DNA from: Candidatus Doudnabacteria bacterium
GTDB lineage: Bacteria > Patescibacteriota > Doudnabacteria > UBA920 > O2-02-FULL-48-8
Assembly (NCBI GenBank): GCA_016182875.1
Contig: JACPFQ010000004.1
Location: forward strand, 28,637-92,636
DNA length: 64,000 bases
Reading direction: 5' to 3'
Shown: positions 21,561-58,346 of the stretch, one piece after another
Layout: each line of letters opens with the position of its first letter
How positions within the stretch are numbered: position 1 is the first letter of the stretch
Program-made: the position numbers and the translations under genes
The notes under the pieces: generated by a model
What the model was told of the DNA's origin: nothing
The model's input: only the letters and a program-made list of their open reading frames with translations
Databases searched by the model: none

Positions 21561-21589
21561 TTGACAAAGTGGCCGAAAGTTGCTAGAAT
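21561..21589 (+). promoter_or_regulatory. Consensus sigma70 promoter TTGACA-17-TAGAAT within the island
   Basis: Perfect -35 and near-consensus -10 with 17-bp spacer. Reads toward the island plus-strand operon. Confidence 0.55.
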
Positions 21590-21777
21590 TCGCGGTTATC
21601 ATGTCTGACCGCCCTTTGTATCGGCGGCATCATGATAGGTCTTTAATAATCGTGTTTTAATCATAGGATTTGGTGGGCTGTTTTTTGCGTTGGGTGTGAT
21701 GAACATTCAGCGCAAGAAGCGGTCTAAACATTTACCACGCAACAGACTCTATCAGCCGATCCGTTTAGGAGGCAGAC

Positions 21778-22515
21778 ATGGCAAAAACGCCACCAGGAAA
21801 AGGGCCTAGAAAGGGTCCCGGCGGAAAAACCGGGGGTGGCCCCAGGAAAGCGGTTTACAAGCGAATATACGAAGTCGGCGGCACACCCGACGCCACCGAG
21901 CTCACTGTCACCATCTACAGGGACGGCCTGCTCGCGGACAAGGAAGCCGTGTGGTTCTACCTCGGGGTCGAAGGCAATCTGCACCAGAAGCCGGCCGAAG
22001 AACTCGACCCGGCAGCCCCCGGCGGCAAGAAAATTTGGAAGCTCGAGACCAAGGGCGGAGTCGCCCACGGCAGGCTCGACTTCACGAGCGCCGAGCTCTC
22101 CAAATTCACACACGTCACGGCTAAGCACGGCTCGTTCGACTGGGAGGAGACGAAGACACGGCCGCCAGCAGAGCCCACTGGGGTGAAGCCGAAAACCAAG
22201 TGGTTCAAGCTCACCCCCGACGACGAGAAGATCGAAACCTGGGATGAGCGCGCGGCGTTCACCTTGGTCACCTTCGACGCCACGGGCAAAACCCCGTCGG
22301 CCGAGACGATGCGCATCAGCGCAGGCAAGGTCATTCGCCTGTTCAACCGCGAAACCGGAGCGCTCATCGGCGAGGGCAAGGTCATCACGTTCGCAACGCC
22401 GGGCACCGGCATCCTCGACATCGAAGTCGAGGTCGTCGGCGACTTCCTGGCGAAGCTGACGTTCATGCACATCGCCAGCGCCGAGACGCTCACCAAGGAA
22501 ATCCGACTCAAATAG
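21778..22515 (+). CDS. Island hypothetical protein with Lys/Gly/Pro-rich N-terminus
   Basis: 245 aa. RBS GGAGG. High-GC codon usage. Overlapping minus-strand ORFs are treated as spurious. Confidence 0.45.
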   Translation: MAKTPPGKGPRKGPGGKTGGGPRKAVYKRIYEVGGTPDATELTVTIYRDGLLADKEAVWFYLGVEGNLHQKPAEELDPAAPGGKKIWKLETKGGVAHGRLDFTSAELSKFTHVTAKHGSFDWEETKTRPPAEPTGVKPKTKWFKLTPDDEKIETWDERAAFTLVTFDATGKTPSAETMRISAGKVIRLFNRETGALIGEGKVITFATPGTGILDIEVEVVGDFLAKLTFMHIASAETLTKEIRLK

Positions 22516-22526
22516 GAGAGACTGAC

Positions 22527-23141
22527 ATGGCAGAGATTGGCGGTATCAAGTTTGACTTCCCGGCCATCAAGGAAGTCCTCGCGTCGGCGGCTGGCCATCA
22601 GGTCTCCAACCTGTTGAGCTTCATCCTCGAACGCGGAACCGAGGCCGAGAAGCAGATCGTCGTCCAGGCCGGCAGGTTGATGGCCGAGGGCAAGTTCAAG
22701 GAAGCCGAGGAAGCATTGAAAGCGCTCCCCGGCGGAATCGGCCGGGCTGACGAAGCCATCTGGTGGTCGGATCTGGCATTCCTGCGGCGGCGCAACCTGC
22801 TCACTCCCGCGCAGGCGACGGCGCTCGAAGCCTTCCTCCGCAACCTCACGGAAGCGGAGAAGGACAAAATCCGCCTGACGCACGTGGTCAAGAATGAAGA
22901 CCAGCGCCGCCACGACCTGGTGACGCTGGGACGCATCGACAGGGACGACGCCAAGCGCCAGCACCTGGACATGGTGTTTCACAAAACGCTGGCCGACACG
23001 CTCAACGCAATCGGCGCGCAGGTCAGCACCTGGGTTCGTCCCAAGATTGAGGAAGCCCAGTGGCGAAACAAGCGGTTCGACGGACCGATCTGGCGGCTCT
23101 TCCGCCCGATCACCTGCATCTGGGAAGGCCTCGGCTTCTAA
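22527..23141 (+). CDS. Island hypothetical protein
   Basis: 204 aa. RBS AGGAGAG 7 nt upstream. Tightly packed with flanking plus-strand genes. Confidence 0.45.
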   Translation: MAEIGGIKFDFPAIKEVLASAAGHQVSNLLSFILERGTEAEKQIVVQAGRLMAEGKFKEAEEALKALPGGIGRADEAIWWSDLAFLRRRNLLTPAQATALEAFLRNLTEAEKDKIRLTHVVKNEDQRRHDLVTLGRIDRDDAKRQHLDMVFHKTLADTLNAIGAQVSTWVRPKIEEAQWRNKRFDGPIWRLFRPITCIWEGLGF

Positions 23142-23153
23142 GGAGAAGAGACA

Positions 23154-24107
23154 ATGAATCAGTTCGAACAAGCGTTGCTCCATGTCCTCGAACTGGCCTT
23201 CACCGATGGCAAGGGTAAAGTCCAGAGGACGATTCGTCCCATCACCGCCGGCTGCACGTTCTTCTGGGCGCTCGGCATGTTCCTGGCGTGGCTGCTCCAG
23301 AGCGGGACCCCGGCGTTCGTGTGTGCGGCCATCTGCGGCGCCATCTGGTTCATCCCCATCGGCCGGGTTGCTCTGGCCGCATGGATTGCCCAGATGATTC
23401 CCGAAGAGTGGCTGAAGAAACTGGGCTTGAGCGTCGAAAACTTCACGCCCAGCAAGACCACCTACACCCTCGGCACCGTCGGCATGTGGCAGATCGCGTC
23501 GCTCATCCTGCTCGGAGTCTTCCCGTTCTGGAAGAGCGGCATGTACTACTCGCTGTATGCCGCGTTCTGGGCCGTGATGGTGGCCACGTGGCTTATTGTC
23601 GCTACGTCCGAAGGCGACATCCGCTTCTGGCGCAAGATCTACGGCTGGTCCATCGCCGGGATTTTCGCCGGGATTCTGCTGTTGCTGCTAATGCCGGAAG
23701 AAGTCAACGGACTGCGGTCGTGGTTGGATCGGCGTGCGACGTACACCGTGGCCGAGACCGCGTTCCACAACGGCGTCGCGTCAGATACGCAAGCCATGCT
23801 CCAGCAGACTGACCAGAACCTCCGCGTCCTCGTCAACCAGCGCCGGTACTACAACCTTCAAGGTTGGGACTATCCGGCGGACAAGGAAGCGGAGATCGTG
23901 CGGCTGACTGCGCTGCACGAAGACCTCGTGCGGGAGCGCGACGTTCCGATTGCCAAGGCGCCGGGCCGGTTCTCGGCCGAAGCCGCCAACGCATTCGGAA
24001 GTTCACTCGACTTCGTCAGCGCGACAGCCAGCAACCCCTGGCTCGCGGGGTTTGCCTGCTTCGCACTGCTGATGTTCGGCTGGGTGGTCATGAAGGGAAG
24101 GAGCTAG
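23154..24107 (+). CDS. Island polytopic membrane protein
   Basis: 317 aa. RBS AGGAGAAG. Several hydrophobic helices. Confidence 0.45.
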   Translation: MNQFEQALLHVLELAFTDGKGKVQRTIRPITAGCTFFWALGMFLAWLLQSGTPAFVCAAICGAIWFIPIGRVALAAWIAQMIPEEWLKKLGLSVENFTPSKTTYTLGTVGMWQIASLILLGVFPFWKSGMYYSLYAAFWAVMVATWLIVATSEGDIRFWRKIYGWSIAGIFAGILLLLLMPEEVNGLRSWLDRRATYTVAETAFHNGVASDTQAMLQQTDQNLRVLVNQRRYYNLQGWDYPADKEAEIVRLTALHEDLVRERDVPIAKAPGRFSAEAANAFGSSLDFVSATASNPWLAGFACFALLMFGWVVMKGRS

Positions 24108-24109
24108 CC

Positions 24110-24919
24110 ATGAGCACACCATCTTCGTCGTCAGGAAACGGCCGACTCCGGCGCTTCGTGATCTTCGTCGGGTTCATGGGCGTGATCTGGTTCGCCTTGC
24201 TTCAGCCATGGATGCAGAGCGCCATCGGGTTCAACGGCTGGCACATCATGGCCTACCAGAACGGCATCCGCTCGGCGGACTGGCGCTGTGCCAACAAGCA
24301 GCCCGAGGACATCGGTCCGGACTGCGACATCGACGCAGTTTATGAGAGGTACGTCCCCACCGCACAGCGCGCCGGCAACCTGACAGCGTCGGTCCACCAG
24401 CTCAACGCAATCGCGGCGAACCTCGCCACGGTCAAATCGCCGCTGGTGGTCGATTCTGGGTCCGCGCTCTGGCAGCTCGACAATATCCACGACACAGAAT
24501 ACCGGCAAACCTTCAAAGGTATCCCTGTGTTCAAGGGTCGGGTGCAGATCCGCGTCCGCGAGCGCGTCACCAGCAAGGACTGCGGCTACAATACAACGGA
24601 CGCCAACGGGGTGCCCAAGCCCGGCGGGCCGTTCTGCAAGCTGGAGCTTGTGGACGACAACCTGCCGTACCTGGCCGCGATCGGGCGGCGGTGTCCGGCA
24701 GAGGGCTGCAGCAATCCCTCGTCCTTCACCAGTCCGGAGGCCAAGTTCCTGGTCGGGACGTGTCTCGACCTGGACGCGGCTGCGGTCAACGGTGTCGTCA
24801 ACCTCGTCGTCAATGAGGGTCGGCATGCCGACTACTTCGGCGACAATACCGGGGACTACGTCGTCGAGTATGAACACAATCCCGCGACTGGCTGCCGTGG
24901 GGAGCAGTTCACGTACTAG
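24110..24919 (+). CDS. Island secreted/membrane-anchored Cys-containing protein
   Basis: Start taken at MSTPSSSS after RBS GGAAGGAG. Signal/TM segment FVIFVGFMGVIWFALL. Confidence 0.4.
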   Translation: MSTPSSSSGNGRLRRFVIFVGFMGVIWFALLQPWMQSAIGFNGWHIMAYQNGIRSADWRCANKQPEDIGPDCDIDAVYERYVPTAQRAGNLTASVHQLNAIAANLATVKSPLVVDSGSALWQLDNIHDTEYRQTFKGIPVFKGRVQIRVRERVTSKDCGYNTTDANGVPKPGGPFCKLELVDDNLPYLAAIGRRCPAEGCSNPSSFTSPEAKFLVGTCLDLDAAAVNGVVNLVVNEGRHADYFGDNTGDYVVEYEHNPATGCRGEQFTY

Positions 24920-25053
24920 CAGCCAACCCAAGGAGGAAGCGTCTCCGGTCAGATGACTGGAGGCATGACAATAACCACGGCCCTGAAGGAGCAGGGCTGG
25001 AGAGCGGCGTCGCACAATCGGCACCGCTTTTTTTTATTTTGCAAAACAAAATA

Positions 25054-25078
25054 CTCCGACCCGCCCGCGGCGTCGGAG
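25054..25078. repeat. CTCCGAC...GTCGGAG hairpin (member of TCCGAC hairpin family)
   Basis: 7-bp inverted repeat with 11-nt loop. Same arm sequences as the hairpins at 39332, 39921 and 60646. Confidence 0.5.
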
Positions 25079-25315
25079 TTAAACTGGCTTTAATATTGCC
25101 TCTATGGGCAGGGATATTGGCGAATCTGTTTTTAGCCGCTTGCTGAAATTGAGAATAGTGAATCCTTTGATGGCTTTGGTTTTAGGATCAAGCCGAATCA
25201 CGACATCATCCGCAGTTTCTACAGAGAGGGAGCTTTTGGATGGCTTGCCTTGGGAAAAATACATTACGTCTGCTTGTTTGTCGTAGTAGTAATAAAGTTT
25301 CATGATTGAATCCAA
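25079..25315 (-). CDS. DUF2283-family small protein (second copy)
   Basis: 78 aa. YYYYDKQADVMYF...KAIKGFTILNF. Low GC, embedded in the high-GC island. Confidence 0.5.
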   Translation of the reverse strand: MDSIMKLYYYYDKQADVMYFSQGKPSKSSLSVETADDVVIRLDPKTKAIKGFTILNFSKRLKTDSPISLPIEAILKPV

Positions 25316-25608
25316 TAAGTTAAATACGCTGTGAGGATAAAATTTCGCCTGTTAATTTTGACGACTGCTGCCAGATGCTTGTTATGAGAAATTTCGCGGT
25401 AAAGAATAAATGCCTTGGGATCTGTTTTGGATGGACGAATAAGCTCTGGATTTTCCAAAACAAGCTTTATGCTTGGCTTGAGAGTTCTCAGCTCGGGGTG
25501 AAAATTGACTATGTGGCTCCACCGTTCGCTGGTCAATTCCACCGGCCCGAATGGTGAGTCAAATAGCTCCATGTAAAAATTATAAACCCATTGCGTCAGT
25601 CTTGACAA
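25300..25608 (-). CDS. DUF4258-like small protein (putative toxin partner)
   Basis: 102 aa. Overlaps the downstream DUF2283 gene by 16 nt. Same gene order as the pair at 2506-2953. Confidence 0.4.
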   Translation of the reverse strand: MSRLTQWVYNFYMELFDSPFGPVELTSERWSHIVNFHPELRTLKPSIKLVLENPELIRPSKTDPKAFILYREISHNKHLAAVVKINRRNFILTAYLTYWIQS

Positions 25609-25630
25609 GTGGACGGTTTTCTGCTATACT
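25602..25630 (+). promoter_or_regulatory. Sigma70-type promoter TTGACA-17-TATACT upstream of island secreted protein gene
   Basis: Shares the core TTGACAA.GTGG.CG with the promoter at 21561. Confidence 0.45.
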
Positions 25631-25745
25631 TGTACGTTAAAATCCCGAATTTGTTTCAGGGCCCAAAATTGAGGGCTCTACAACAAGTTCAGAATTTACG
25701 GAAACCGCAAGAATTGTAAAAAGGTCTAGGAGGACCAATACTACC

Positions 25746-26738
25746 ATGAGAACGAAACTCTTTTTCGTCGTCGCGTTCGTCGCACTCGCGTCTACCGCGT
25801 TCGCACAGGAGACGCTCGACTTCAGTACCCAGCCGCGCTCAGTGCGCGCCATCGCTAAGGTCGTCATCGAGACGGCGGGGTACCTCGTCAGCGAGGAGTC
25901 GCTGAGCACCATCGACCCCTCCTGCACGTGGAACCGCACGCTCGACGTGAGCGACCTCGAGCAGGCGCTCAACACCATCCTGCCGAGTTGCGGCAACGAG
26001 GCGCAGTTCGACGACTACCGGGTGACCATCCGGAAGCGCGGCAGCCCGGCACCAGCCACACGCAGTATGTCCGCTCCCGCTCGCCGCGCCGCAACGCCGA
26101 CCATCGCGGAACCCGAACCGCCTGCCGCTCAGCCTGCCGCACCCGCGGCGCCGGCGTCCACTGACCCGAACGTGTGGTCAGCCGCCGACGTCAGCCGCTA
26201 CGGCCCCTTGCCGCTGAATGCCAGGCCGGAGTTCTATCGCATCAGCCAGCAGGTCAGGCGGCAGGCGTTCGGCGACGCGTTCGTCAACTTCCGCAACGCG
26301 GAAGAGGACTTCGCACGCCGCACCGGCGTTTACCCCGATCAGGTTGGTCCGTTCGTCGGCGCTACCTACGGCGCATATTCCCCCTACGGTTTGTACGGCT
26401 ACGGCCTCTCGAGGGGTTGTTCCACTGGACAGCCGTCCGGCAGGGTCAAGTTCAAGTACTACGGTGAGGGAAAGGAACGTGGCCTCTGGAAGGTCTGGTT
26501 CAACGGACGTCGTATCGGGTCCGTGGACCAGGGAGACAGTGCGTGGAACGAGATGTGGGAGTGCGTCGGCGACTATGTCGTCGAAATCGAAAAACGCCGC
26601 TGTCAACCCAGGGGTCTCTGCCGGTATCGAGACGTGTACAGCGTCAGAGCCGGCGAACTGACCGAGGTTGAGATCGGCGACGTGCTGTTCGAAGACAGCC
26701 ACGAACGGCGGCGGCCTCAGATTCTCACCGAGCGTTAA
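25746..26738 (+). CDS. Secreted protein with signal peptide and Pro/Ala-rich linker (high GC)
   Basis: 330 aa. MRTKLFFVVAFVALASTAFAQE signal peptide. RBS AGGAGGA. Confidence 0.5.
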   Translation: MRTKLFFVVAFVALASTAFAQETLDFSTQPRSVRAIAKVVIETAGYLVSEESLSTIDPSCTWNRTLDVSDLEQALNTILPSCGNEAQFDDYRVTIRKRGSPAPATRSMSAPARRAATPTIAEPEPPAAQPAAPAAPASTDPNVWSAADVSRYGPLPLNARPEFYRISQQVRRQAFGDAFVNFRNAEEDFARRTGVYPDQVGPFVGATYGAYSPYGLYGYGLSRGCSTGQPSGRVKFKYYGEGKERGLWKVWFNGRRIGSVDQGDSAWNEMWECVGDYVVEIEKRRCQPRGLCRYRDVYSVRAGELTEVEIGDVLFEDSHERRRPQILTER

Positions 26739-26766
26739 TAGCGCTCGGATCTCATGGATGCCAAAA

Positions 26767-26810
26767 CGGCCAGTTACTCATCGCGAGTGACTGGCCGTTC
26801 GTTTTTTATG
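26767..26810. terminator. Bidirectional terminator at island right edge
   Basis: GGCCAGTTACTCATCGCGAGTGACTGGCC hairpin followed by a T-run. Confidence 0.6.
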
Positions 26811-26815
26811 AACAC

Positions 26816-27184
26816 TTATACGTAATCGCTCAGGGCACTGTTAATCACATTAACAATAACATATGAGAGGATAATCACCACCAAACCGATAATTGCGTTA
26901 CGCAAAGTTTTTTTGCCGTTCTCCGCCCATTCTTCATTCGCTCCGGAAAATATATATTGGAACCCCCCGATAATAACGAACAGTACGGCCAAGAGGCCAG
27001 CAAACGTCAGAAGAATGTTTATTATTTTTGTAATCAGGGCCGCGGGGGATGAACTGTACTCAGGTAAAGTCCCACTTGCGGGGTTCGGTATATCCAATCT
27101 AGCCAATGTCAGCAACGGCATGCCCATTACAACAATTGCCATCAAAACTATCGGCAGATACTTTTCAAGCTTTTTTAAGCTCAT
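26816..27184 (-). CDS. TrbC/VirB2-like pilin family protein (paralog 1)
   Basis: 122 aa. Signal peptide plus two TM helices with motif GGFQYIFSGANEE..A....IIGLVVIILSY. Confidence 0.6.
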   Translation of the reverse strand: MSLKKLEKYLPIVLMAIVVMGMPLLTLARLDIPNPASGTLPEYSSSPAALITKIINILLTFAGLLAVLFVIIGGFQYIFSGANEEWAENGKKTLRNAIIGLVVIILSYVIVNVINSALSDYV

Positions 27185-27185
27185 A

Positions 27186-27319
27186 CCAGGTACTGAAAAT
27201 TTGATTTAATGATACTTAACATAAGTTATATTATTATCTAGTCCGGTAATAAAAATTTGATTTAACTGCTGGTCTTTTAGTCCCGCCTTTGGCGGGACTA
27301 TCAAATTTCTAGTACCTGG
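27186..27319. repeat. 134-bp segment bounded by 20-bp inverted repeats CCAGGTACT(G/A)GAAAATTTGAT
   Basis: IRs at 27186-27205 and 27300-27319 (19 of 20 match). The segment holds the terminator hairpin of pilin 2 and the promoter region of pilin 1. Confidence 0.55.
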
Positions 27320-27340
27320 CATACTTTTTTCTTTAGCTTG

Positions 27341-27724
27341 CTAAACGCCGCTGCTGCCACTGCTAAGCAAGGCGTTGGAAATCACGCGGACAATCACGAA
27401 CGAAAGAATAATCACGACGATTCCGATAATGGAATTGGTGATGATTTTTTTGGCGCTCTCGCCCGCTTCCTCATTGCCGGCTGCGGTAATGTAGCGGAAG
27501 CCGCCGATGATGAGGAACAGCACTGCGACCAATCCGGCAATCGCAAGAGCTATGTTGATGATACGCAGGATGAATTCGGAAAGCTTGGTATCGCCCGGAA
27601 GATTGGTGCCAGTGGGATTTGGCCTTTCGAATTGCGCGCCTGAGACCAATGGCAGGACGAACAAAGCCAGGCTCAGCACAATCGAGGTAATCTGGGCAAT
27701 TTTGACTAATTTATTATGCTTCAT
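27341..27724 (-). CDS. TrbC/VirB2-like pilin family protein (paralog 2)
   Basis: 127 aa. GGFRYITAAGNEE motif. Confidence 0.6.
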   Translation of the reverse strand: MKHNKLVKIAQITSIVLSLALFVLPLVSGAQFERPNPTGTNLPGDTKLSEFILRIINIALAIAGLVAVLFLIIGGFRYITAAGNEEAGESAKKIITNSIIGIVVIILSFVIVRVISNALLSSGSSGV

Positions 27725-27753
27725 AGGTTTCTTGAGTTTTTTATCTTTAGGTT

Positions 27754-27796
27754 CGCCCGGTCATCCGACCGGGCGTCCAGTCGAATGACTGGACGA
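27754..27796. repeat. GC-rich double-hairpin repeat (REP-like), copy 1
   Basis: CGCCCGGTCATCCGACCGGGCG + TCCAGTCGAATGACTGGACGA. Roughly 85% identical to 50950-50993. Confidence 0.5.
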
Positions 27797-27824
27797 CCGA
27801 CCTTTCTACCTAAAGCTATTAATG

Positions 27825-28214
27825 TTATGTGGGAGGCTTGGATAAGGCGTTATTGATTACGCTAACTATTATATAAGAAAGAATAATTATAGACAAACCA
27901 ATTATAGCATTTCTTAAACCCTTTTTGCCAGCCTCGGCCCATTCTTCATTGACGCCCGATGTGATGTACTGGAAGCCGCTGTAGATGATGAAAAAGATGG
28001 CCAGGACGCCGGCCACAACCAAAAGCTGCCTGATAAAGAAGGTGAATAGGTAGCCAAAGCTGTTGCAGGCTGTTCCGGGCGTGGCGTCAGCCGGACAGGT
28101 GCCAAAATCGACCAAATAATCCTTTGAGGGATTTTTGATTTCTGCCAGGGCTGGCAAAGCCAGCACAGCGACAACCAAACACGCGATAATCCAAAATTTA
28201 TACTTATTTTTCAT
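27825..28214 (-). CDS. TrbC/VirB2-like pilin family protein (paralog 3)
   Basis: 129 aa. SGFQYITSGVNEEWAE motif. Confidence 0.6.
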   Translation of the reverse strand: MKNKYKFWIIACLVVAVLALPALAEIKNPSKDYLVDFGTCPADATPGTACNSFGYLFTFFIRQLLVVAGVLAIFFIIYSGFQYITSGVNEEWAEAGKKGLRNAIIGLSIIILSYIIVSVINNALSKPPT

Positions 28215-28906
28215 GACGGCGCTCCTATTAAATTGGCCGCTGCCCTTATTATAACGTATGCAAACAAAATAGCGACAATGCCCGCGCTAATCCACTTGAG
28301 CGCCGCCTTGGCTTCTGTCAACTGCTCCTCGTCGCCAGCGGCGGTGATGTATCGAAAGCCGTTGAACACCAGCATGAGAATAGCTAACAATCCGACTATC
28401 TGCAAAAATCCTGCAAGCAGCCGGTTGACCAAAAAGTCGACGAAAGTCGGTTCATTGATCGGGTTAACCACTCTATTGGCAAAAGATGGATTGGCAGGGT
28501 CGGGAATTTCTGTGGCTCCAAAGAAATTAATCATGCCAGCCACAAGGACAAATGACAGCACGGCGACGATGAAACCATATACCGCGTAGCTAAAAGCAGT
28601 CTTGGCTCGCTTGACCGCTTCGGCGTTGCCCTGGGAAACAATCATCTGAAACCCGGCGGCAACCACAACCAAAATCGGAATCAAGGCAGTGAAGCTGGTA
28701 AAAATGATAAGCAGGCGAATTATCAAATCTGGCAGATTGGCAGCTCCGGCAAGGGGCATTCCGAAAAAATCGACTTGACTGCCAAAAGGATTGCAAAGTT
28801 TGGTCGTGGTTTCGTCCGGATTACAGCCGCCTTGCGCCAAAGCTGCAGCCGGCAATAAAAACAGCAAACCTAAGGAGCATAAAATTGTTTTTTTGTGTGT
28901 CAGCAT
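28211..28906 (-). CDS. Tandem-duplicated TrbC/VirB2-like pilin protein (two domain copies)
   Basis: 231 aa. The domain occurs twice (GFQMIVSQGNAE and GFRYITAAGDEE). Confidence 0.55.
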   Translation of the reverse strand: MLTHKKTILCSLGLLFLLPAAALAQGGCNPDETTTKLCNPFGSQVDFFGMPLAGAANLPDLIIRLLIIFTSFTALIPILVVVAAGFQMIVSQGNAEAVKRAKTAFSYAVYGFIVAVLSFVLVAGMINFFGATEIPDPANPSFANRVVNPINEPTFVDFLVNRLLAGFLQIVGLLAILMLVFNGFRYITAAGDEEQLTEAKAALKWISAGIVAILFAYVIIRAAANLIGAPS

Positions 28907-29334
28907 CAGAATCCGGGTAAAAATTCGTAAATGCTGTTGTCCGCGCCCGGGCTAAAGCTGTAGCCGCCGAAAGCATGAAGCAAATAATCAACCAGCAGGA
29001 ATGCCATCATAATGATGAAAAATCCAATAACCCCGTTTTTGAAATCGGCTCTGGCGGCTTTCATCTTCTCTTCGTTGCCAGCCGAGGTAGCGAGGTTATA
29101 ACCCCCCCAAAAAATAAAGAATAAAGCTATGAGCCAAGAAATCCCCAGAAAAAGATTAATCAGCCTGACTGCAATCAGTACAATTCCGGTAAGCTCACAG
29201 GGCTGGGAATCAGTGCCCGCCCCTCGCCGGCCGCAGGTGACAAGCGCGGCTTGAGCCAAACTTGCGGTCAGGGAAAATAAAACTACGGCCGCGATTAGAA
29301 TTTTAAGCTTTGGCTTTATTTTTCCATATTCCAT
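28906..29334 (-). CDS. TrbC/VirB2-like pilin family protein (paralog 5)
   Basis: 142 aa. GGYNLATSAGNEE motif. Confidence 0.55.
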   Translation of the reverse strand: MEYGKIKPKLKILIAAVVLFSLTASLAQAALVTCGRRGAGTDSQPCELTGIVLIAVRLINLFLGISWLIALFFIFWGGYNLATSAGNEEKMKAARADFKNGVIGFFIIMMAFLLVDYLLHAFGGYSFSPGADNSIYEFLPGF

Positions 29335-34870: not shown

Positions 34871-34959
34871 CAAAAACTATTCGCTAGTAGTCTATGCTGT
34901 GGATAACGTTTTGCAAATCCAAACTTGTGGAGAAAAACCCAAAATGTTAGAATTCTAGT

Positions 34960-37254
34960 ATGGCTATCAGCAGTGAATTTCACGCATATACCTACATAAA
35001 AAACGAGCTAAAAGCTCTGGGTTGGAATGTTTACAACCCAAGCAGACGCGCGGATGGAGAAGTTTATACTCAAAACGAGTGCTTACAGAATGCGCTAATA
35101 AAAAAACATTTAATCGGCGAAAAGCCGGAGAATGTTATTGTCGTAAGGAATAATAAATTTTGGGTTATAGAAGCCAAATCAACACACAAGGAACTTCAAA
35201 AAGCAATAGAAGAAGCGCAAGGATATGCTGACAAATTAAATGAAGACGGAATTCATGCGCCTATTGCCACGGGAATAGCTGGTAATGATGAAGATACTTA
35301 CTTAATAAAGAGTTTTTATTTTTACAAAGGGAAGTGGGTTCCAATTGAGGCCAACGGGAAAGTTTTAACCGGATTGTTGCCTCGCGAAACAGCGCGTTAT
35401 TTGGTTGACAATGATATATACAAAACAGAGGACTTTAATCTTCCTGACGAGCTTTATTACGCAAAGGCCAATGCCATCAACGAAATACTACATATTGGCT
35501 CTATTAATAAAAACAATAGAGCGAAAGTAATGGCTGCATTATTGTTAGCACTTCTTGAGGAAACTCCGATCAACCTAGATAATTCTGCTTCCTTGTTAAT
35601 CCAAGAAATAAACGCGCGGGTTGACAAGATTTTGTTTGAACATGGCAGGAGAGATTTTGCTAGGTTTGTTCAAATAACAACCCCACCCACTCCTGACAAT
35701 CATGTAAAGTTTAGGAAAGCGATTATTGACACCATACAAGAGTTGAAGGGATTAAATATTCGGTCTGCGATGAACTCCGGAACTGACATTCTCGGCAGAT
35801 TTTATGAAGTTTTCTTAAAATACGGCAATGGTGCAAAAGAAATTGGTATCGTTTTAACGCCAAGACACATTACCAGATTAGGTGTTGAGATTTTAAATGT
35901 AAGCAGAACCGATGTTGTTTTTGATCCGGCTTGCGGAACCGGAGGATTTTTGGTGGCCGCTTTTGACTATGTGCGAAAACACGCAAATAAAACACAGTTA
36001 GACGAGTTCAAGGAAAATAGGATTTTTGGCATAGAACAAGAACCTGAAGTGGTTGCTCTTGCTCTAGTAAATATGATCTTCAGGGGCGATGGGAAAAACA
36101 ACATTATTGAAGGCAATACTTTCGCAAAAATAATTCCTACAAAGGCAACGAAAGTTTTAATGAATCCCCCATTTGCACTCAAAAAAGATGATGAGAAAGA
36201 GTATAAGTTTATTGATAGGGCAATTGAGCAAATGGAAGATGGTGGGCAGATGTTTGTTATTATTCCTAGCACCATAATGTTTAAGGGAAAACAATATAAA
36301 ACATGGAGAGAAAAATTACTCCAAAATAATACTATTCAAGGAGTAATTAAACTACCCGAGGATCTATTTTATCCAATAGGAGTACATACATCCGCTTTAA
36401 TTCTTAAAAAAGGCATTCAACACGACAAAGGAGAACAGATTTTTTGGGGTTACCTAGTTGATGGGTATATGAAAAAGAAGGGTGTAATGAAAAAAGTAAA
36501 GGATGGGAATATAGAAATGATGAAATCAGCCGTTATTGATTTTTTGAACCATTCAAAAAATCTGCCGAAATCAAAACCGAAAGAATATACCATTGCGCCA
36601 GCATTATTCGATTCCGATTTAGAACTTGCTCCAGAATATTACCTTGAAGAGGGCGAGCACAGCGACAATGAAATTGAAAAGCAAATGCAAATCGTATTGG
36701 ATAGGTTGTTTAGTTATCTTATGAATAGCTCTCAAACAAATGTTAATGGTAGTGTTCTACAATCTTCAAAAATAGACATCGATCATTTTGAAGACATAGA
36801 AGGCGTTTTCAACATCGCAAACGCGAAATCTAGCAATATCGAGGATTACGCCAAAGGCGACGTACCTTTTGTTACGAGTACGGAGTTAAATAACGGTGTT
36901 GAAATGTTTATTGAGCCAGATGATGATAGTTTAATTTTCGATACGCCCGGTATAGCTATTTCTTCTTTTGGATTTGCCACTATACAATTACCGCCATTTG
37001 TAGCGAGAAGCCATGGGGCAGTAATAGTGCTAAAACCAAAAAAGAAAATGGGGATTTTAGAACTTGCGTACTTTGCCGCACAACTTAATTTACAAACGTG
37101 GCGGTTCTCTTACGGAAGATGGGTAACAAAGAAAAGATTGAAAAAGCTCGAAATAAAAACTCTCAAAAATGGAGACATTCCATCGTTCAAGAAATTCGTA
37201 GATAGATTTGAAGATAACTATAAAAAAGCAAGGAAAATAGTTACTGGAGAATAG
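34960..37254 (+). CDS. Single-chain Type IIG-like restriction-modification enzyme (nuclease + gamma-class N6A MTase + TRD)
   Basis: 764 aa. N-terminal PD-(D/E)xK-like VIEAKS. MTase motif I FDPACGTGGFL. Motif IV NPPF. C-terminal TRD-like region. Confidence 0.65.
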   Translation: MAISSEFHAYTYIKNELKALGWNVYNPSRRADGEVYTQNECLQNALIKKHLIGEKPENVIVVRNNKFWVIEAKSTHKELQKAIEEAQGYADKLNEDGIHAPIATGIAGNDEDTYLIKSFYFYKGKWVPIEANGKVLTGLLPRETARYLVDNDIYKTEDFNLPDELYYAKANAINEILHIGSINKNNRAKVMAALLLALLEETPINLDNSASLLIQEINARVDKILFEHGRRDFARFVQITTPPTPDNHVKFRKAIIDTIQELKGLNIRSAMNSGTDILGRFYEVFLKYGNGAKEIGIVLTPRHITRLGVEILNVSRTDVVFDPACGTGGFLVAAFDYVRKHANKTQLDEFKENRIFGIEQEPEVVALALVNMIFRGDGKNNIIEGNTFAKIIPTKATKVLMNPPFALKKDDEKEYKFIDRAIEQMEDGGQMFVIIPSTIMFKGKQYKTWREKLLQNNTIQGVIKLPEDLFYPIGVHTSALILKKGIQHDKGEQIFWGYLVDGYMKKKGVMKKVKDGNIEMMKSAVIDFLNHSKNLPKSKPKEYTIAPALFDSDLELAPEYYLEEGEHSDNEIEKQMQIVLDRLFSYLMNSSQTNVNGSVLQSSKIDIDHFEDIEGVFNIANAKSSNIEDYAKGDVPFVTSTELNNGVEMFIEPDDDSLIFDTPGIAISSFGFATIQLPPFVARSHGAVIVLKPKKKMGILELAYFAAQLNLQTWRFSYGRWVTKKRLKKLEIKTLKNGDIPSFKKFVDRFEDNYKKARKIVTGE

Positions 37255-52157: not shown

Positions 52158-52233
52158 TTGGTGGACCTGGCGGGACTCGAACCCGCGATCTTTAGTATGC
52201 CATACTAACGCTTTTCCTCTAAGCTACAGGCCC
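52158..52233 (-). tRNA. tRNA-Ala (anticodon GGC)
   Basis: G3:U70 wobble pair in the acceptor (Ala identity). Anticodon loop ATGGCAT. CCA encoded. Confidence 0.8.
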
Positions 52234-52904
52234 GCTAAAATTAACTTTGGGATTGCTTCAAGCTCAAGTTGTATATGACTGCCAACTCCCATGATGACAC
52301 AAACGCCTTTATATTCTTTATTCTTTGTTGGTTTGCCAATAGTTCTCGGGTCAAATTTTGTCTTATAAAAATTTCTCAAAGGTATACCAGTTAGGACTGA
52401 CCAATATTTCTCCAAACTTTTAATGTTCTGATCTGCTCGATAACTAACCCTACACTTAAGGTTCCTGTGATCAACTCCATAGCATAACTCTAGTAATTTA
52501 ATATATAAAAGAATTATATTCGGATCAGAACTACCGAGTACCATGCCGCTATGACCTTTCCACTTAGTTCCTTCACCTAAATAAAGAGTGGCTAAAATCA
52601 TTTTTAAAACATCTAAATCTTTGGTTTTTTGCTGAAGTGGTTTTATGTTATTCAACAATTCTTGGATAAACCTCTCGCGCTTGATTTTATTTGCTGCCCA
52701 TGCTAATTCTCTGGCTTTTTTATAATTCTCTTGGTTCAGTTTGTAAATCTTTTGCCTGTACCACTTTGGCAAAACAACATCCTTACACCAGCCAGATAGC
52801 GTCGCCTTAGGTAATGATAACTTCAAAGCCTGCTCAATTTCGGAATAAGTCTTGCCTTTGGCCCGAAGTTTGATTACTTGCTGTTTTATTTCCACTCGAT
52901 TCAT
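52224..52904 (-). CDS. HTH + LAGLIDADG-like (single-motif) putative homing-endonuclease-like protein
   Basis: 226 aa. N-terminal HTH. ILATLYLGEGTKW resembles a degenerate LAGLIDADG motif. Sits between two tRNAs. Tentative. Confidence 0.35.
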   Translation of the reverse strand: MNRVEIKQQVIKLRAKGKTYSEIEQALKLSLPKATLSGWCKDVVLPKWYRQKIYKLNQENYKKARELAWAANKIKRERFIQELLNNIKPLQQKTKDLDVLKMILATLYLGEGTKWKGHSGMVLGSSDPNIILLYIKLLELCYGVDHRNLKCRVSYRADQNIKSLEKYWSVLTGIPLRNFYKTKFDPRTIGKPTKNKEYKGVCVIMGVGSHIQLELEAIPKLILAGL

Positions 52905-53904: not shown

Positions 53905-53978
53905 CGGGGTGTCGTATACCGGTAGTACGCACGCTTCGGGTGCGTGTAGACTGGGTTCAATTCCCAGCACCCCGACCA
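53905..53978 (+). tRNA. tRNA-Pro (anticodon CGG)
   Basis: C1:G72 acceptor (CGGGGTG/CACCCCG). Anticodon stem CACGC/GCGTG. Loop TTCGGGT with U33 and G37. CCA encoded. An alternative Glu(TTC) fold was rejected on geometry. Confidence 0.65.
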
Positions 53979-54134
53979 AGAAATAGGCCCTGTTTATAAG
54001 GGAATTGAACGGGCAGAAGTGAGACAAGGCCTCAGCCGCAGTCGAACGTCGGCGAATGCGAGCAGGCGCAGCATTCGACGCTGCCCCGGCGTGAGCGCTT
54101 CAGCGCGAACTGAAAATTCCCAGCACCCCGACCA
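53979..54134 (+). mobile_element. ~156-bp insertion/remnant at tRNA-Pro 3' end ending in an exact 20-nt duplicate of the tRNA 3' end
   Basis: AATTCCCAGCACCCCGACCA occurs at the tRNA 3' end and again at 54115-54134. The internal sequence is roughly 75% identical to the tRNA-Leu trailer. Confidence 0.4.
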
Positions 54135-54273
54135 GAATCGCTCGGCAATTTGCAAAATTATCGGCTGTCAAAATCTGCTGATTTTGCAGCCTACTTGCTC
54201 GCGCCGGAGTACTAGCGCAGGTTAATTTTGCAAACAGCCTCGCTTTTTAGACAATAAGTAACCATTTTTGTCA

Positions 54274-55602
54274 ATGTTTCACGTGAAACATTTCAAATTG
54301 CATCAGTTGTTATTCTTTGTTTTTCTAATAACCCTGCCACTTCAGACAAGAGTAATCTTTCAACCTGAAACCGCCTATATTGGCGCTGTTTTTAATTACC
54401 ATTTGGCTTTTTTTGTCTATTTATCGGATTTGGTGTTCTTCGCAGCCATCTTAGACTGGCTCTTGTTTCACAGGCCCAATTTAGTTTCACGTGGAACTAT
54501 TTTATGGCCTACAGTTGCTCTATTTTCCTTGATTTTAGCTACATTGTTTCACGTGAAACATATAGATTTAGGGCTTTACAGTACTCTAAAGTGGCTTGAA
54601 TTAATAATGTTGCTTGTTTACGCATGGTCGAATTTTAAAGAAAAACTGATGTTTCACGTGGCACTATGGATTTTATTTGGCTCAGGGGTTATTCAGGCAA
54701 TTATTGGAATATGGCAGTTTCACGTGCAACATGGTCTTAATCTAACTTTTTTGGGTGAATATGTTTCACAACTAGGAACTCCAGGCTTGGCTACTATACA
54801 GTTTCACGGAGAAAAACTGATTAGGGCCTATGGAACCATGCCTCATCCCAATGTTTTGGCAGGTTTTTTACTAGTTTCACTTGTCTGCGGCCTGTATCTA
54901 TTGTCCCGTGAAACAATGTTTCACAAAATAAAAAGTGTCTTAGTTTCATGTGGAACTATTCTGATTTTGCTCGGAATTTTCTTTAGTTTCTCAAGAATTA
55001 GCTGGATTTTGGCGGGTTTGACCATTCTTGCCTACATTTGGTTTCATGTGAAACACATGAATTGGTTCCACGTGAAACTAATAAGCATAATCGCCATTGT
55101 TTCACTTAGCATAATTTTTCTTGGTTATAAGGACCTGGCTGTTTCGCGTGGGTCAGAAAGCCTGGATAGCAATTCGGTCAATCTTCGGACAACTTACAAT
55201 CAGCAGGGGATAGAACTTATAAAAAAATACCCGCTACTTGGCGTAGGAGTAGGGCATTACATTCCGGCTATCCGCGATTCATACCGGCTGCCGGACTGGC
55301 AATACCAGCCAGCGCATAACATTTATATTTTATTGGGAGTGGAGTTAGGCATCCTGGGACTCGGGTTATTTTTGCTGATAGTCGGCAAAATCTTCGCACT
55401 GGCCTGGCCGCAAAAAAACTCCGCCTTCGCCAAGGCTACGGCGGACAAGCAACTGCTGACTTTTTCTTTACTGCTGGCAGTTGGAAGTTTTCTAATTATT
55501 GGTTTGTTCGATCACTACCCGATAACTATTCAACAAACACGTCTAACTTTTTTTCTGCTGTTAGGAATGCTTGCGGCTTCAGGTAATTTGGGGGACATAT
55601 GA
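54274..55602 (+). CDS. O-antigen ligase/Wzy-like polytopic membrane protein
   Basis: Start taken at the ATG (MFHVKH) 6 nt inside the TTG-start ORF. Polytopic. Wzy_C-like region HNIYILLGVELGILG. Confidence 0.65.
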   Translation: MFHVKHFKLHQLLFFVFLITLPLQTRVIFQPETAYIGAVFNYHLAFFVYLSDLVFFAAILDWLLFHRPNLVSRGTILWPTVALFSLILATLFHVKHIDLGLYSTLKWLELIMLLVYAWSNFKEKLMFHVALWILFGSGVIQAIIGIWQFHVQHGLNLTFLGEYVSQLGTPGLATIQFHGEKLIRAYGTMPHPNVLAGFLLVSLVCGLYLLSRETMFHKIKSVLVSCGTILILLGIFFSFSRISWILAGLTILAYIWFHVKHMNWFHVKLISIIAIVSLSIIFLGYKDLAVSRGSESLDSNSVNLRTTYNQQGIELIKKYPLLGVGVGHYIPAIRDSYRLPDWQYQPAHNIYILLGVELGILGLGLFLLIVGKIFALAWPQKNSAFAKATADKQLLTFSLLLAVGSFLIIGLFDHYPITIQQTRLTFFLLLGMLAASGNLGDI

Positions 55603-57608: not shown

Positions 57609-58346
57609 ATGCAGGCGACTGAAGGTCTAAGTTATCTTGGATTAAATGAAAAACAGGCCAAAATTTATATGGCGCTGTTGCAGTTTGGGCAAAGTACGGC
57701 TTACGCTGTTGCCGAAGCCACCAATCTCAAAAGACCGACTGTGTATGTAGTACTAGAGGATTTGCGGATGAAAGGCCTGGTGCGAAAAATCCCGCATGCC
57801 AAAAAGCAATTGTTCTCTGCCAAGGCGCCGGACGAATTTTTGGCTGAAACCCAAGACAAGCTGGATCGGGCGAAAGCCGTATTACCGCAGCTTCTGGCTT
57901 TGACTAAATCAGAACAAAGACCCAAGACTTATCTGTTTGAAGGGATCAAGGGCGTGGAAGAAGCTCTGGCGATGCATTTAAACAGCATGGCGGGAAAAGA
58001 ATTGATTGGCTTTTACGCCCAAGCAGCAGGCATCCCAAAAGAGCTGTTTGCGATATTTGAAAAATATAATCAAAAAATGAAAAATCTGAATATTAAAAGC
58101 CGCGGCATAGTCCCGGATCACCCCAGCCTTAAAATATATCGAAAGCGCGATCAAGAATTTGGGCGAGAGATGAAAATCGTTCCGTTTAGCGTATTTTCTT
58201 CAAACAATGTCGTGGAGATAGGACAAGGTTTTGTAAAAATTATTTCATTCCATGATTTGCACGCGGTAATCATCGAAAATCGAGGAATCGCGCAAACCTT
58301 TAAACAAATTTTCGAGATGGTCTGGAAAAGCACCTTATTCAATTAG
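57609..58346 (+). CDS. TrmB-family transcriptional regulator
   Basis: 245 aa. N-terminal HTH EKQAKIYMALLQFGQSTAYAVAEATNLKRPTVYVVLEDLRMKGLV. Confidence 0.7.
   Translation: MQATEGLSYLGLNEKQAKIYMALLQFGQSTAYAVAEATNLKRPTVYVVLEDLRMKGLVRKIPHAKKQLFSAKAPDEFLAETQDKLDRAKAVLPQLLALTKSEQRPKTYLFEGIKGVEEALAMHLNSMAGKELIGFYAQAAGIPKELFAIFEKYNQKMKNLNIKSRGIVPDHPSLKIYRKRDQEFGREMKIVPFSVFSSNNVVEIGQGFVKIISFHDLHAVIIENRGIAQTFKQIFEMVWKSTLFN

What the first reader, a model, noticed from the sequence alone, without database searches (positions are those of the whole stretch)
54274..55160. Wzy/O-antigen-ligase-like gene saturated with ~16 copies of the palindrome GTTTCACGTGAAAC in two different reading frames
Within about 900 bp the motif GTTTCA(C/T)GTG(A/G)AAC or a close variant occurs about 16 times. 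Three or four of these are perfect 14-16-bp palindromes (TGTTTCACGTGAAACA at 54275 and 54545, and a near-perfect pair at 55041/55073). At least five copies contain an exact CACGTG, far above expectation for a ~40% GC sequence. The motif is translated in two frames: ttt-cac-gtg gives FHV(K/Q)H, and gtt-tca-cgt/tgt/ctt gives VS(R/C/L). Selection must therefore act at the DNA or RNA level rather than on a peptide repeat. Spacing is irregular (25-180 bp), so this is not a CRISPR array. I did not see the motif elsewhere in the window. Possibilities are clustered binding sites for a CACGTG-recognising protein, a hotspot for a tiny palindromic selfish element, recombination or phase-variation substrates in a surface-polysaccharide gene, or target sites related to a restriction-modification specificity.
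Basis: seen in the sequence. Interest (0 to 1): 0.7.

Follow-up and report, generated by a model that had tools for sequence, protein, structure and literature searches.

The report
Centromere (parS) array inside a gene
The repeated palindrome is the standard bacterial centromere sequence parS, packed about sixteen times into one membrane-protein gene of a Candidatus Doudnabacteria genome, and relatives across this little-studied group keep parS sites in the same gene, so it probably marks where their chromosome is gripped for segregation.

Summary
Gene 54268-55602 (+), an O-antigen-ligase/Wzy_C-family gene of a Candidatus Doudnabacteria MAG, holds 8 sites within 2 mismatches of GTTTCACGTGAAAC, two of them perfect 16-mers. 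It also holds 7 lone half-sites and one degenerate copy. No site lies elsewhere in the 64 kb (0.31 expected by chance).

TGTTTCACGTGAAACA is the canonical chromosomal parS, the ParB/Spo0J-binding centromere site.

Selection acts on the DNA. Counts exceed synonymous-codon shuffles. In 21 coding sequences (the window gene plus 20 relatives at 33-67% protein identity), Val in FHV is GTG 51/51 (background 20%). Ser in VS[RC] is TCA 39/42 and Arg is CGT 17/20. Third-position entropy falls to about 0 only inside the sites.

Sites occupy conserved slots in the protein, and all three reading frames are used across relatives. More distant Patescibacteria homologues carry 1-5 perfect parS, often with more just downstream. 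In 35 loci the density is 2.87 sites/kb in the gene against 0.054/kb outside.

Best reading: a ParB loading array that forms the chromosomal centromere. No parB, parA or dnaA lies in the window, so ParB in this genome and proximity to the origin remain untested. This is a known element in an unusual, apparently undescribed, conserved intragenic arrangement.

The parts
54268..55602 (+). Host gene: O-antigen-ligase/Wzy_C-family polytopic membrane protein (444 aa from TTG 54268; more likely starts at ATG 54274, MFHVKH...).
   Evidence: Pfam PF04932 E=1.2e-20, 74 bits against a cut-off of 31.7. 100% identical to an NCBI Candidatus Doudnabacteria MAG protein that was called 127 aa shorter. The N-terminal region is conserved in orthologs.
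54275..54290 (.). parS 1: perfect TGTTTCACGTGAAACA, overlapping the ATG (54274) of MFHVKH.
   Evidence: Conserved N-terminal slot, occupied in 12 (+2) of 19 orthologs.
54465..54471 (+). Lone half-parS GTTTCAC (peptide LFHRPN).
   Evidence: Position not conserved in orthologs.
54483..54498 (.). parS-like AGTTTCACGTGGAACT (1 mismatch in the 14-nt core; VSRGT, frame 0).
   Evidence: Lineage-specific slot.
54545..54560 (.). parS 2: perfect TGTTTCACGTGAAACA (LFHVKH).
   Evidence: Slot occupied in 18 of 19 orthologs; Val is GTG 19/19 and the third position of K/E/Q is A 19/19.
54650..54665 (.). parS-like TGTTTCACGTGGCACT (2 core mismatches; MFHVAL).
   Evidence: Shared only with the closest relative L001.
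54716..54731 (.). parS-like AGTTTCACGTGCAACA (1 core mismatch; QFHVQH).
   Evidence: Slot occupied in 15 of 19 orthologs, with codons CAG TTT CAC GTG CAA CAT nearly fixed.
54763..54769 (+). Lone half-parS GTTTCAC (VSQLG).
54801..54807 (+). Lone half-parS GTTTCAC (QFHGEK).
54874..54880 (+). Lone half-parS GTTTCAC (VSLVC).
54900..54915 (.). Right half only: ATTGTCCCGTGAAACA (LSRET). A decayed copy of the conserved VSRET slot, which in relatives reads GTT TCA CGT GAA AC.
   Evidence: Slot occupied in 11 of 19 orthologs.
54918..54924 (+). Lone half-parS GTTTCAC (MFHKIK).
54942..54957 (.). parS-like AGTTTCATGTGGAACT (2 core mismatches; VSCGT). Its right half is the known variant half-site GTTCCAC on the minus strand.
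   Evidence: Conserved VSCGT slot in 7 of 19 orthologs; codons GTT TCA TGT GGA ACA are strongly preferred.
55040..55055 (.). parS-like GGTTTCATGTGAAACA (1 core mismatch; WFHVKH).
   Evidence: Slot shared with 2 other orthologs.
55064..55079 (.). parS-like GGTTCCACGTGAAACT (1 core mismatch, at the tolerated N position; WFHVKL).
   Evidence: Lineage-specific.
55099..55105 (+). Lone half-parS GTTTCAC (VSLSI).
   Evidence: The aligned slot is VSCGT/VSCAT in 9 of 19 orthologs.
55140..55155 (.). Degenerate copy TGTTTCGCGTGGGTCA (VSRGS; 4 mismatches).
   Evidence: The aligned slot is VSRAT/VSRGT, with 1 mismatch, in 3 orthologs.

Best explanation
The motif is parS, the 16-bp palindrome to which the chromosomal partition protein ParB (Spo0J) binds.

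Shown here:
- The O-antigen-ligase-like gene carries a dense parS array in about 880 bp: 2 perfect sites, 6 near-perfect sites, about 7 half-sites and one degenerate copy.
- The array has been written into the codons of the protein.
- The same arrangement is kept in orthologous genes of many Patescibacteria, so selection acts on the DNA.

Inferred mechanism:
- ParB dimers load at the full palindromes, bind CTP, close into clamps and slide onto neighbouring DNA.
- Many loading sites side by side give one compact, heavily loaded partition complex.
- That complex is moved by ParA and/or used to load SMC, which would make this gene the chromosome's centromere.
- The lone GTTTCAC half-sites are either decaying or newly arising copies, or weak accessory ParB sites of the kind reported in P. 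aeruginosa.
- They survive mainly as the left half because GTTTCAC codes V-S or F-H, which a membrane protein tolerates. The right half GTGAAAC forces V-K or E-T, or a stop in the third frame.
- Because the first site overlaps the start codon, ParB probably also dampens expression of the gene.
For: 1. Identity. TGTTTCACGTGAAACA equals the published parS (B. subtilis TGTTNCACGTGAAACA, Hyphomonas TGTTTCACGTGAAACA, Burkholderia chrI tGTTNCACGTGAAACa; Table 1 of PMC7022226).

2. Locality. There are 8 sites in the gene and 0 elsewhere in 64 kb against 0.31 expected. Outside the gene the half-sites are at chance level (8 in about 63 kb on both strands).

3. DNA-level selection. Counts exceed synonymous-codon nulls. 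In 21 coding sequences (window plus 20 relatives) the codons inside the motifs are almost fixed:
- Val GTG 51/51 (background 20%)
- Ser TCA 39/42 (background 28%)
- Arg CGT 17/20 (background 15%)
- Gly GGA 19/20 (background 36%)
- Lys AAA 22/22
Third-position entropy is about 0 inside the sites and 1.4-1.9 bits in flanking codons.

4. Frames. The same DNA is read in three frames across relatives: FHVK, VSRET and FTWN.

5. Variation. Over 193 sites, differences concentrate at positions 5 and 12 (the known N positions), the central CG, and the outer bases.

6. Conservation of the locus. 35 of 81 loci (window plus 80 homologue loci) carry at least 2 sites. Density is 2.87/kb in the gene against 0.054/kb outside, and most outside sites lie within 3 kb downstream. 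Distant Parcubacteria-type homologues carry 1-5 perfect 16-mers plus 1-4 more in the adjacent non-coding DNA, for example 7 sites in 1.4 kb in L029.

7. Half-sites. Half-parS GTTTCAC/GTTCCAC are bound by P. aeruginosa ParB and several other ParBs (PMC7022226).

8. ParAB in the phylum. ParA and ParB exist and score as essential in a cultivated Patescibacterium, Southlakia epibionticum (SEML1_0183/0184; supplement of PMC10633639).

9. SMC. An SMC-like gene lies in the window at 12555-14735.
Against: - No ParB, ParA or DnaA gene lies in the 64-kb window or within 10 kb of any parS-bearing homologue (Pfam; phmmer). ParB in this particular genome is therefore assumed, not shown.
- No DnaA-box cluster was found.
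- The GC-skew minimum at 54-55 kb follows a local switch in gene strand rather than a clear global inflection. Proximity to the origin is unproven.
- Many copies are half-sites or carry 2 mismatches and may not bind.
- No binding data exist for any Patescibacteria ParB.
Confidence: 0.8

Rival explanations
1. Only the one to three best palindromes act as the centromere. The other copies, the half-sites above all, are neutral debris. They would arise from local birth and death of parS sites, from intragenic gene conversion, or from peptide constraints inherited from former sites, and would have no function of their own.
For: - Several half-sites are at positions not shared by orthologs.
- One (LSRET, 54900) is clearly a decayed copy of a slot that is a full site in relatives.
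- One parS is often sufficient for segregation in model species (PMC7333895).
Against: - Lone GTTTCAC heptamers still exceed the synonymous-codon null (6 observed, mean 1.7, P = 0.0008).
- Sites with 1-2 mismatches are held with fixed synonymous codons across deep divergence, for example the QFHVQH slot in 15 of 19 orthologs and the VSCGT slots.
Confidence: 0.12
2. The palindromes are operators for a different DNA-binding protein that regulates this envelope gene. Candidates are the TrmB-family regulators encoded nearby or another protein that recognises CACGTG. On this view the resemblance to parS is a coincidence.
For: - A TrmB-family gene lies about 2 kb downstream in the window (57609-58346) and also downstream in L029.
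- The first site overlaps the start codon.
- No parB lies nearby.
Against: - There is an exact 16/16 match to the canonical parS, and 56 perfect 16-mers occur across the related loci.
- The pattern of tolerated variation matches the N positions of parS.
- Regulators do not normally need 8 to 16 operators spread through a coding region.
- Sites continue into non-coding DNA downstream of the gene in other lineages.
Confidence: 0.04
3. The repeats reflect a repeated peptide motif (FHVKH / VSRET) that the protein needs. On this view the DNA similarity is only a by-product.
For: The peptides sit at helix-loop junctions and are conserved in the protein alignment.
Against: - Synonymous positions are fixed inside the motifs and free outside them.
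- The same DNA gives three unrelated peptides in three frames.
- Identical 16-mers continue in non-coding DNA downstream.
- Counts exceed codon-shuffled nulls.
Confidence: 0.01
4. The motif is a genome-defence or mobile feature: a restriction-modification target, a DNA-uptake sequence, a miniature selfish palindrome, or a phase-variation substrate.
For: - CACGTG is a type II restriction site (general knowledge).
- A restriction-modification methylase/specificity fusion gene lies at 34960-37254.
- These bacteria encode pilus genes.
Against: - The motif is absent from the other 62.7 kb. It is neither avoided nor dispersed, as restriction sites or uptake sequences would be.
- There are no flanking element sequences, and positions are orthologous across distant relatives.
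- ORFs are intact in all full-length relatives, and there is no tandem or regularly spaced repeat.
Confidence: 0.02

Closest known systems
Canonical chromosomal parS sites (ParB/Spo0J-binding centromere; B. subtilis TGTTNCACGTGAAACA, Hyphomonas TGTTTCACGTGAAACA)
   Same: The 16-bp palindrome is identical. The positions that tolerate change are the same. Sites lie inside coding sequence, as most B. subtilis sites do (from memory). The motif is rare elsewhere.
   Different: - The array is far denser: 8 full or near-full sites plus 7 half-sites in about 0.9 kb of one gene. B. subtilis has 10 sites in total, 8 of them in the origin domain.
- No parB lies nearby.
- The host gene and the codon slots are conserved across a phylum-level radiation.
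Species with many clustered parS (Streptomyces coelicolor and Listeria innocua, 20-23 sites near oriC; PMC7333895)
   Same: There are multiple parS copies close together, presumably to build one large partition complex.
   Different: From my own knowledge, those clusters spread over many genes and tens to hundreds of kb. Here the cluster is confined to one ORF, plus up to 3 kb downstream in some lineages, and sits at orthologous codons.
Half-parS sites bound by P. aeruginosa ParB (GTTCCAC/GTTTCAC heptamers)
   Same: The heptamers are the same, and they are present here as lone copies next to full sites.
   Different: In P. aeruginosa they are hundreds of dispersed genomic sites. Here they are concentrated in the centromere gene, are almost all on one strand, and are at background frequency elsewhere.
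Plasmid centromeres built of iterated repeats (F sopC, R1 parC, P1 parS)
   Same: Many binding sites for the partition protein are packed into less than 1 kb (general knowledge).
   Different: Those are non-coding, regularly spaced direct repeats with plasmid-specific sequences. Here the spacing is irregular (one search finds no tandem array), the DNA is coding, and the sequence is the chromosomal consensus.
Noc-binding sites (NBS) of the ParB paralogue Noc
   Same: It is a 14-16-bp palindrome bound by a ParB-family protein (general knowledge).
   Different: The NBS consensus recalled from memory (ATTTCCCGGGAAAT) differs at the specificity-determining bases, and NBS are dispersed over the chromosome rather than clustered.

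Membership tests
Chromosomal parS (ParB-binding centromere site) | 16-bp palindrome matching tGTTNCACGTGAAACa | tested here: met
   Two perfect 16-mers and six cores with 1-2 mismatches. Published consensus taken from Table 1 of PMC7022226.
Chromosomal parS (ParB-binding centromere site) | Variation confined to the positions ParB tolerates (N at position 5 and its mirror, position 12) | tested here: met
   Position frequencies over 193 sites: positions 5, 12, 8/9 and 1/16 vary, and all others are at least 95% fixed. At slot aa 93 the codons are TTT/TTC and AAA/GAA/CAA. The sites were chosen as within 3 mismatches of the consensus, so the test is partly circular.
Chromosomal parS (ParB-binding centromere site) | Conserved as DNA, independent of the reading frame and of coding | tested here: met
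   Synonymous codons are fixed. Three frames are used. Identical sites occur in adjacent non-coding DNA.
Chromosomal parS (ParB-binding centromere site) | Few copies per genome, clustered in one region | tested here: inconclusive
   None in the other 62.7 kb of the window. Across 35 loci the density is 0.054/kb outside the gene against 2.87/kb inside. Whole genomes could not be scanned.
Chromosomal parS (ParB-binding centromere site) | A cognate ParB (ParB/Sulfiredoxin domain plus ParB HTH) is encoded in the same genome | not testable with these tools
   Absent from the window and from the 10-kb flanks of the 80 homologue loci searched. The rest of the 327-kb contig and of the MAG could not be fetched. 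ParAB are present and essential in the cultivated Patescibacterium Southlakia.
Chromosomal parS (ParB-binding centromere site) | Origin-proximal location | tested here: inconclusive
   No dnaA gene and no DnaA-box cluster in the window. The cumulative GC-skew minimum at 54-55 kb coincides with a conserved divergent gene-strand switch, but the skew does not keep rising afterwards. Homologues without parS lie 2-3 kb from dnaA in L073 and L051.
Chromosomal parS (ParB-binding centromere site) | ParB binding and spreading demonstrated | not testable with these tools
   Needs ChIP-seq, EMSA or BLI with the lineage's ParB.
O-antigen ligase / Wzy_C family (PF04932), the host gene | Significant match to the Wzy_C profile in a polytopic membrane protein | tested here: met
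   PF04932 E=1.2e-20, 74.2 bits against a cut-off of 31.7, residues 230-369. Nine hydrophobic segments. Invariant R/H/G/Q/P/D columns across 30 homologues. The substrate and function were not tested.
CRISPR array / tandem-repeat centromere (sopC, parC type) | Direct repeats at regular spacing | tested here: not met
   No tandem array was detected in the region. Spacing between copies is irregular, and the unit is a palindrome inside an intact ORF.
DNA uptake sequence / restriction-site class | Dispersed over-representation, or avoidance, across the genome | tested here: not met
   All full sites lie in one gene, and half-sites are at chance frequency in the remaining 62.7 kb.

The most novel reading that the evidence does not exclude
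In a large part of the Patescibacteria (CPR), the chromosomal centromere is not merely near but built into one conserved gene for a polytopic envelope protein (Wzy/O-antigen-ligase-like), and this placement is itself functional. One possibility is that co-translational membrane insertion of the nascent protein (transertion) tethers the ParB-parS complex to the membrane in these tiny cells, which lack known polar anchors. Another is that ParB loading ties expression of the envelope gene to the cell cycle. The locus would then be a lineage-wide, sequence-recognisable centromere marker and a natural record of parS birth and death under a double (protein plus ParB) code.
Probability: 0.15. Interest if true: 0.8.

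Novelty: new member of a known kind. Interest (0 to 1): 0.5.

Why it matters
- It assigns a concrete, testable centromere to a Candidatus Doudnabacteria genome and to many other Patescibacteria, a group whose cell biology is almost unknown. My library searches found nothing on parS or ParB in this group.
- The array is a clean natural example of two overlapping codes. The ParB recognition sequence dictates both the codons and the amino acids (FHVKH, VSRET, VSCGT, FTWN) at conserved slots of a membrane protein.
- Orthologous slots can be followed across deep divergence, with clear gains, losses and decay to half-sites. The locus therefore bears on an open question in the ParABS field: why parS sites cluster and how clusters evolve (PMC7333895).
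- Practically, the motif cluster could help to orient and check CPR genome assemblies. It also explains odd conserved peptides and a probably mis-called start codon in annotations of this gene.

Tried and rejected
- parB, parA and dnaA search. I ran Pfam on about 60 window ORFs. I also ran phmmer with B. subtilis Spo0J, Soj and DnaA sequences recalled from memory against all ORFs of at least 80 aa in the window and 80 loci. No ParB or ParA turned up anywhere. DnaA appeared only in two loci that lack parS.
- Origin of replication. The DnaA-box scan was at chance level. Cumulative GC skew has its minimum at the gene, but it tracks gene orientation and is not decisive.
- Walking along the source contig. 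The NCBI protein is not in the contig index. A neighbouring gene returned only short Logan contigs, one of which ends inside the gene.
- Variant centromere sequences in the 46 homologue loci without parS. No repeated palindrome was found, only unrelated repeats: a heptamer tandem in L043 and L038 and a 128-nt interspersed repeat in L078.
- Promoter and terminator scan around the gene: nothing above chance.
- Literature on parS or ParB in Patescibacteria/CPR: no relevant paper in the library. Livny et al. 2007 is not held.
- Hypotheses considered and rejected: CRISPR, tandem iterons, DNA uptake sequences, restriction-modification targets, a selfish palindromic element, phase variation and a peptide repeat. 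The reasons are given under the rival explanations and the membership tests.
Full report
**Observation**

The region was read directly and searched. GTTTCACGTGAAAC with up to 2 mismatches occurs 8 times, all between 54276 and 55078, and nowhere else in the 64-kb window. Dinucleotide-preserving shuffles give a mean of 0.31 and never more than 2.

GTTTCA[CT] occurs 13 times in the gene out of 20 in the window. GTTTCAC occurs 11 of 15 times and CACGTG 6 of 10 times in the gene.

- two perfect palindromes (54275, 54545)
- six sites with 1-2 mismatches in the 14-nt core
- six lone left halves (GTTTCAC) and one lone right half (GTGAAAC)
- one degenerate copy

They lie in two reading frames of a single ORF, 54268-55602 (+). 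The ORF is an O-antigen-ligase/Wzy_C-family membrane protein (Pfam PF04932, E=1.2e-20). It is 100% identical to a protein of a Candidatus Doudnabacteria MAG.

The counts exceed codon-aware nulls. With the protein and its codon usage held fixed (5000 synonymous permutations), full sites are 8 against a mean of 3.4 (maximum 7). GTTTCAC is 11 against 3.2, and lone half-sites are 6 against 1.7 (P = 0.0008). With codon order permuted, the expected number of full sites is 0.01.

**Identity**

TGTTTCACGTGAAACA is the canonical chromosomal parS, the centromere-like site bound by ParB/Spo0J. A full-text search for the 16-mer returns only ParABS papers.

Table 1 of the review PMC7022226 lists TGTTNCACGTGAAACA for B. 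subtilis (10 sites, 8 in the origin domain). It lists TGTTTCACGTGAAACA for Hyphomonas and tGTTNCACGTGAAACa for Burkholderia chromosome I. The same review describes ParB binding to lone half-parS heptamers GTTTCAC/GTTCCAC in P. aeruginosa and several other species.

**Is selection on DNA or on peptide?**

Homologues of the protein down to about 35% identity carry FHV[KEQ][HQ] at recurring places. The protein alignment shows conserved MFHVK[HQ], LFHVK[HQ], QFHVQH, VSRET and VSCGT. I fetched the DNA of 80 homologous loci from GTDB genomes.

In the window gene plus 20 relatives with 33-67% protein identity, the codons inside these peptides are almost invariant:
- Val in FHV is GTG 51/51 (20% elsewhere in the same genes)
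- Ser in VS[RC] is TCA 39/42 (28% elsewhere)
- Arg is CGT 17/20 (15% elsewhere)
- Val is GTT 40/42 (38% elsewhere)
- Gly is GGA 19/20 (36% elsewhere)
- Lys is AAA 22/22

In a codon alignment, third-position entropy is about 0 bits at parS positions and 1.4-1.9 bits in the flanking codons. The only free positions are TTT/TTC and AAA/GAA/CAA, which are the known N position of parS and its mirror image, together with the central C/T.

Across relatives the same DNA is read in all three frames: FHVK, VSRET and FTWN. The DNA is what is conserved, and the peptides follow from it.

**Conservation of the locus**

Mapping sites onto the alignment of 19 full-length orthologs shows old slots:
- N-terminus: 12 (+2) of 19
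- about aa 93: 18 of 19
- about aa 150: 15 of 19
- about aa 212 (VSRET): 11 of 19
- about aa 226: 7 of 19, and about aa 278: 9 of 19 (VSCGT)
- rarer and lineage-specific slots, including a frame-1 FTWN slot

The window gene has five sites in slots shared with other orthologs, one shared only with its closest relative, and two of its own. Its LSRET (54900) is a decayed copy of the VSRET slot.

Each ortholog carries 1-9 sites (3-9 in all but one, L016) in the gene and essentially none in the 10-kb flanks.

More distant wzy-like homologues from Parcubacteria-type and other Patescibacteria MAGs carry 1-5 perfect 16-mers in the 3' half of the gene. They carry 1-4 more in the non-coding DNA immediately downstream, for example 7 sites in 1.4 kb in L029. 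Only the 16-mer and a few adjacent bases are shared between copies.

Over the 35 loci with at least 2 sites, density is 2.87 per kb in the gene and 0.054 per kb outside, and most outside sites lie within 3 kb downstream. A position-frequency table of 193 sites (56 perfect 16-mers) shows variation concentrated at positions 5, 12, 8/9 and the outer bases. The other 46 homologue loci have no parS and no alternative repeated palindrome; they may be paralogues.

**Context**

The window is ordinary Patescibacteria chromosome. It encodes RNase Y, ribosomal proteins, TrmD, an SMC-like protein, FtsH, LexA, RecA, FtsK, IF-2, RNase HII, seven tRNAs and T4SS-type pilins.

Upstream genes (IF-2, MGDG synthase, RNase HII) are on the minus strand and the parS gene is on the plus strand. 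This divergent arrangement is kept in a 964-kb Doudnabacteria contig.

No ParB, ParA or DnaA is encoded in the window or within 10 kb of any parS-bearing homologue. There is no DnaA-box cluster. The GC-skew minimum at 54-55 kb tracks the local strand switch. Proximity to the origin and the presence of ParB in this genome are therefore not established. The rest of the source contig could not be retrieved.

Patescibacteria do have the machinery. In the cultivated Southlakia epibionticum, ParA and ParB (PF02195 + PF17762) are annotated and score as essential in Tn-seq. They lie 180 kb from dnaA, so parAB need not be next to the origin or the centromere in this group.

**Mechanism (inferred)**

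ParB dimers nucleate at the full palindromes, bind CTP, close into clamps and slide onto flanking DNA. A dense array of loading sites should give a high loading rate and one compact partition complex, which serves for ParA-driven segregation and/or SMC loading (general model: PMC7333895).

The sites sit mostly at the ends of predicted transmembrane helices and in short turns, where polar residues such as H, K, S, R, E and T can be accommodated.

The excess of left halves over right halves (lone GTTTCAC 6, lone GTGAAAC 1) is explained by coding. GTTTCAC gives V-S or F-H. GTGAAAC forces V-K or E-T, or a stop codon in the third frame. This last point is my own reasoning from the genetic code.

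The first site overlaps the start codon, so ParB occupancy probably lowers expression. ParB-dependent repression of adjacent genes is reported in P. aeruginosa.

Local turnover of sites within one gene fits the report that new parS sites are tolerated only near the native locus (PMC7333895).

**Comparison and novelty**

The element type is known and the sequence is the consensus. What I could not find described is this architecture: the centromere array confined to, and encoded within, one conserved membrane-protein gene across many Patescibacteria, with orthologous codon slots and use of three reading frames.

I file it as a new member of a known kind with an unusual arrangement. Membership in 'parS' is met for the sequence-level features. 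It is untested for the cognate protein, for binding and for position relative to the origin.

The main rival is that most copies are relics and only the best one to three work. Alternative binders, a peptide repeat, restriction-modification, uptake sequences, selfish elements and phase variation are each contradicted by specific results.

**Verdict**

My confidence that this is a ParB-parS centromere array is 0.8. Interest is moderate (0.5): it is not a new kind of element, but it is a neat, conserved and apparently unreported organisation that opens CPR chromosome segregation and parS-cluster evolution to direct test.

Noticed in passing
window 53959-53978 and 54115-54134: An exact 20-nt direct repeat. 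The 3' end of tRNA-Pro(CGG) (53905-53978) is duplicated 156 nt downstream, just upstream of the parS gene. It looks like an att-type scar of an integrated or excised element.
   Followed up: partly
window ~20000-27000: An island of 57-62% GC in a genome of about 46% GC. It has long ORFs without any Pfam match (19919-21532, 21957-23183, 23154-24107, 23864-24919, 25746-26738). Possibly foreign or mobile DNA.
   Followed up: partly
window 26816-29334 (-): Five consecutive small genes that match the type IV secretion system pilin family PF18895, directly after the GC-rich island.
   Followed up: no
window 52224-52904 (-): A 226-aa ORF without a Pfam match, wedged between tRNA-Ala and tRNA-Arg. It has an N-terminal HTH-like stretch and a homing-endonuclease-like look.
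   Followed up: no
window 54268-54648: The public annotation of this gene (317 aa) starts at the internal MFHVAL (ATG 54649), itself inside a parS-like site. The upstream 127 codons are conserved in orthologs, so the deposited start is probably too short. The likely start is ATG 54274, inside the first parS.
   Followed up: yes
window 34960-37254 (+): A single 764-aa protein that combines an N6 DNA methylase, a type I specificity (Methylase_S) domain and a weak HsdR_N match, that is, a fused restriction-modification enzyme. Two DnaA-box-like 9-mers lie just upstream at 34898-34934.
   Followed up: no
L081 12878-13783: In a 964-kb Doudnabacteria contig, a DUF4446 gene and a bactofilin gene lie 2-3 kb downstream of the parS-bearing gene. 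From memory, bactofilins scaffold ParABS in Myxococcus. These genes are not present in the window.
   Followed up: no
L078 6384-12475: An interspersed repeat with about 128-nt spacing within pairs (core GGAAAATTGGGGGCCC, with a partner CCCCAATTTTCCC on the other strand) occurs 6-7 times around a wzy homologue that lacks parS. It looks like a miniature mobile element.
   Followed up: no
L073 13049-14440 and L051 6497-7870: In two Patescibacteria lineages a wzy-like homologue without parS lies 2-3 kb from dnaA. This hints that the gene family is often origin-proximal.
   Followed up: no
L082 8303-8485: An independent Logan assembly contig of the same organism ends inside the 3' part of the parS gene. 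The cause is unknown; it could be coverage, strain variation or repeats.
   Followed up: no
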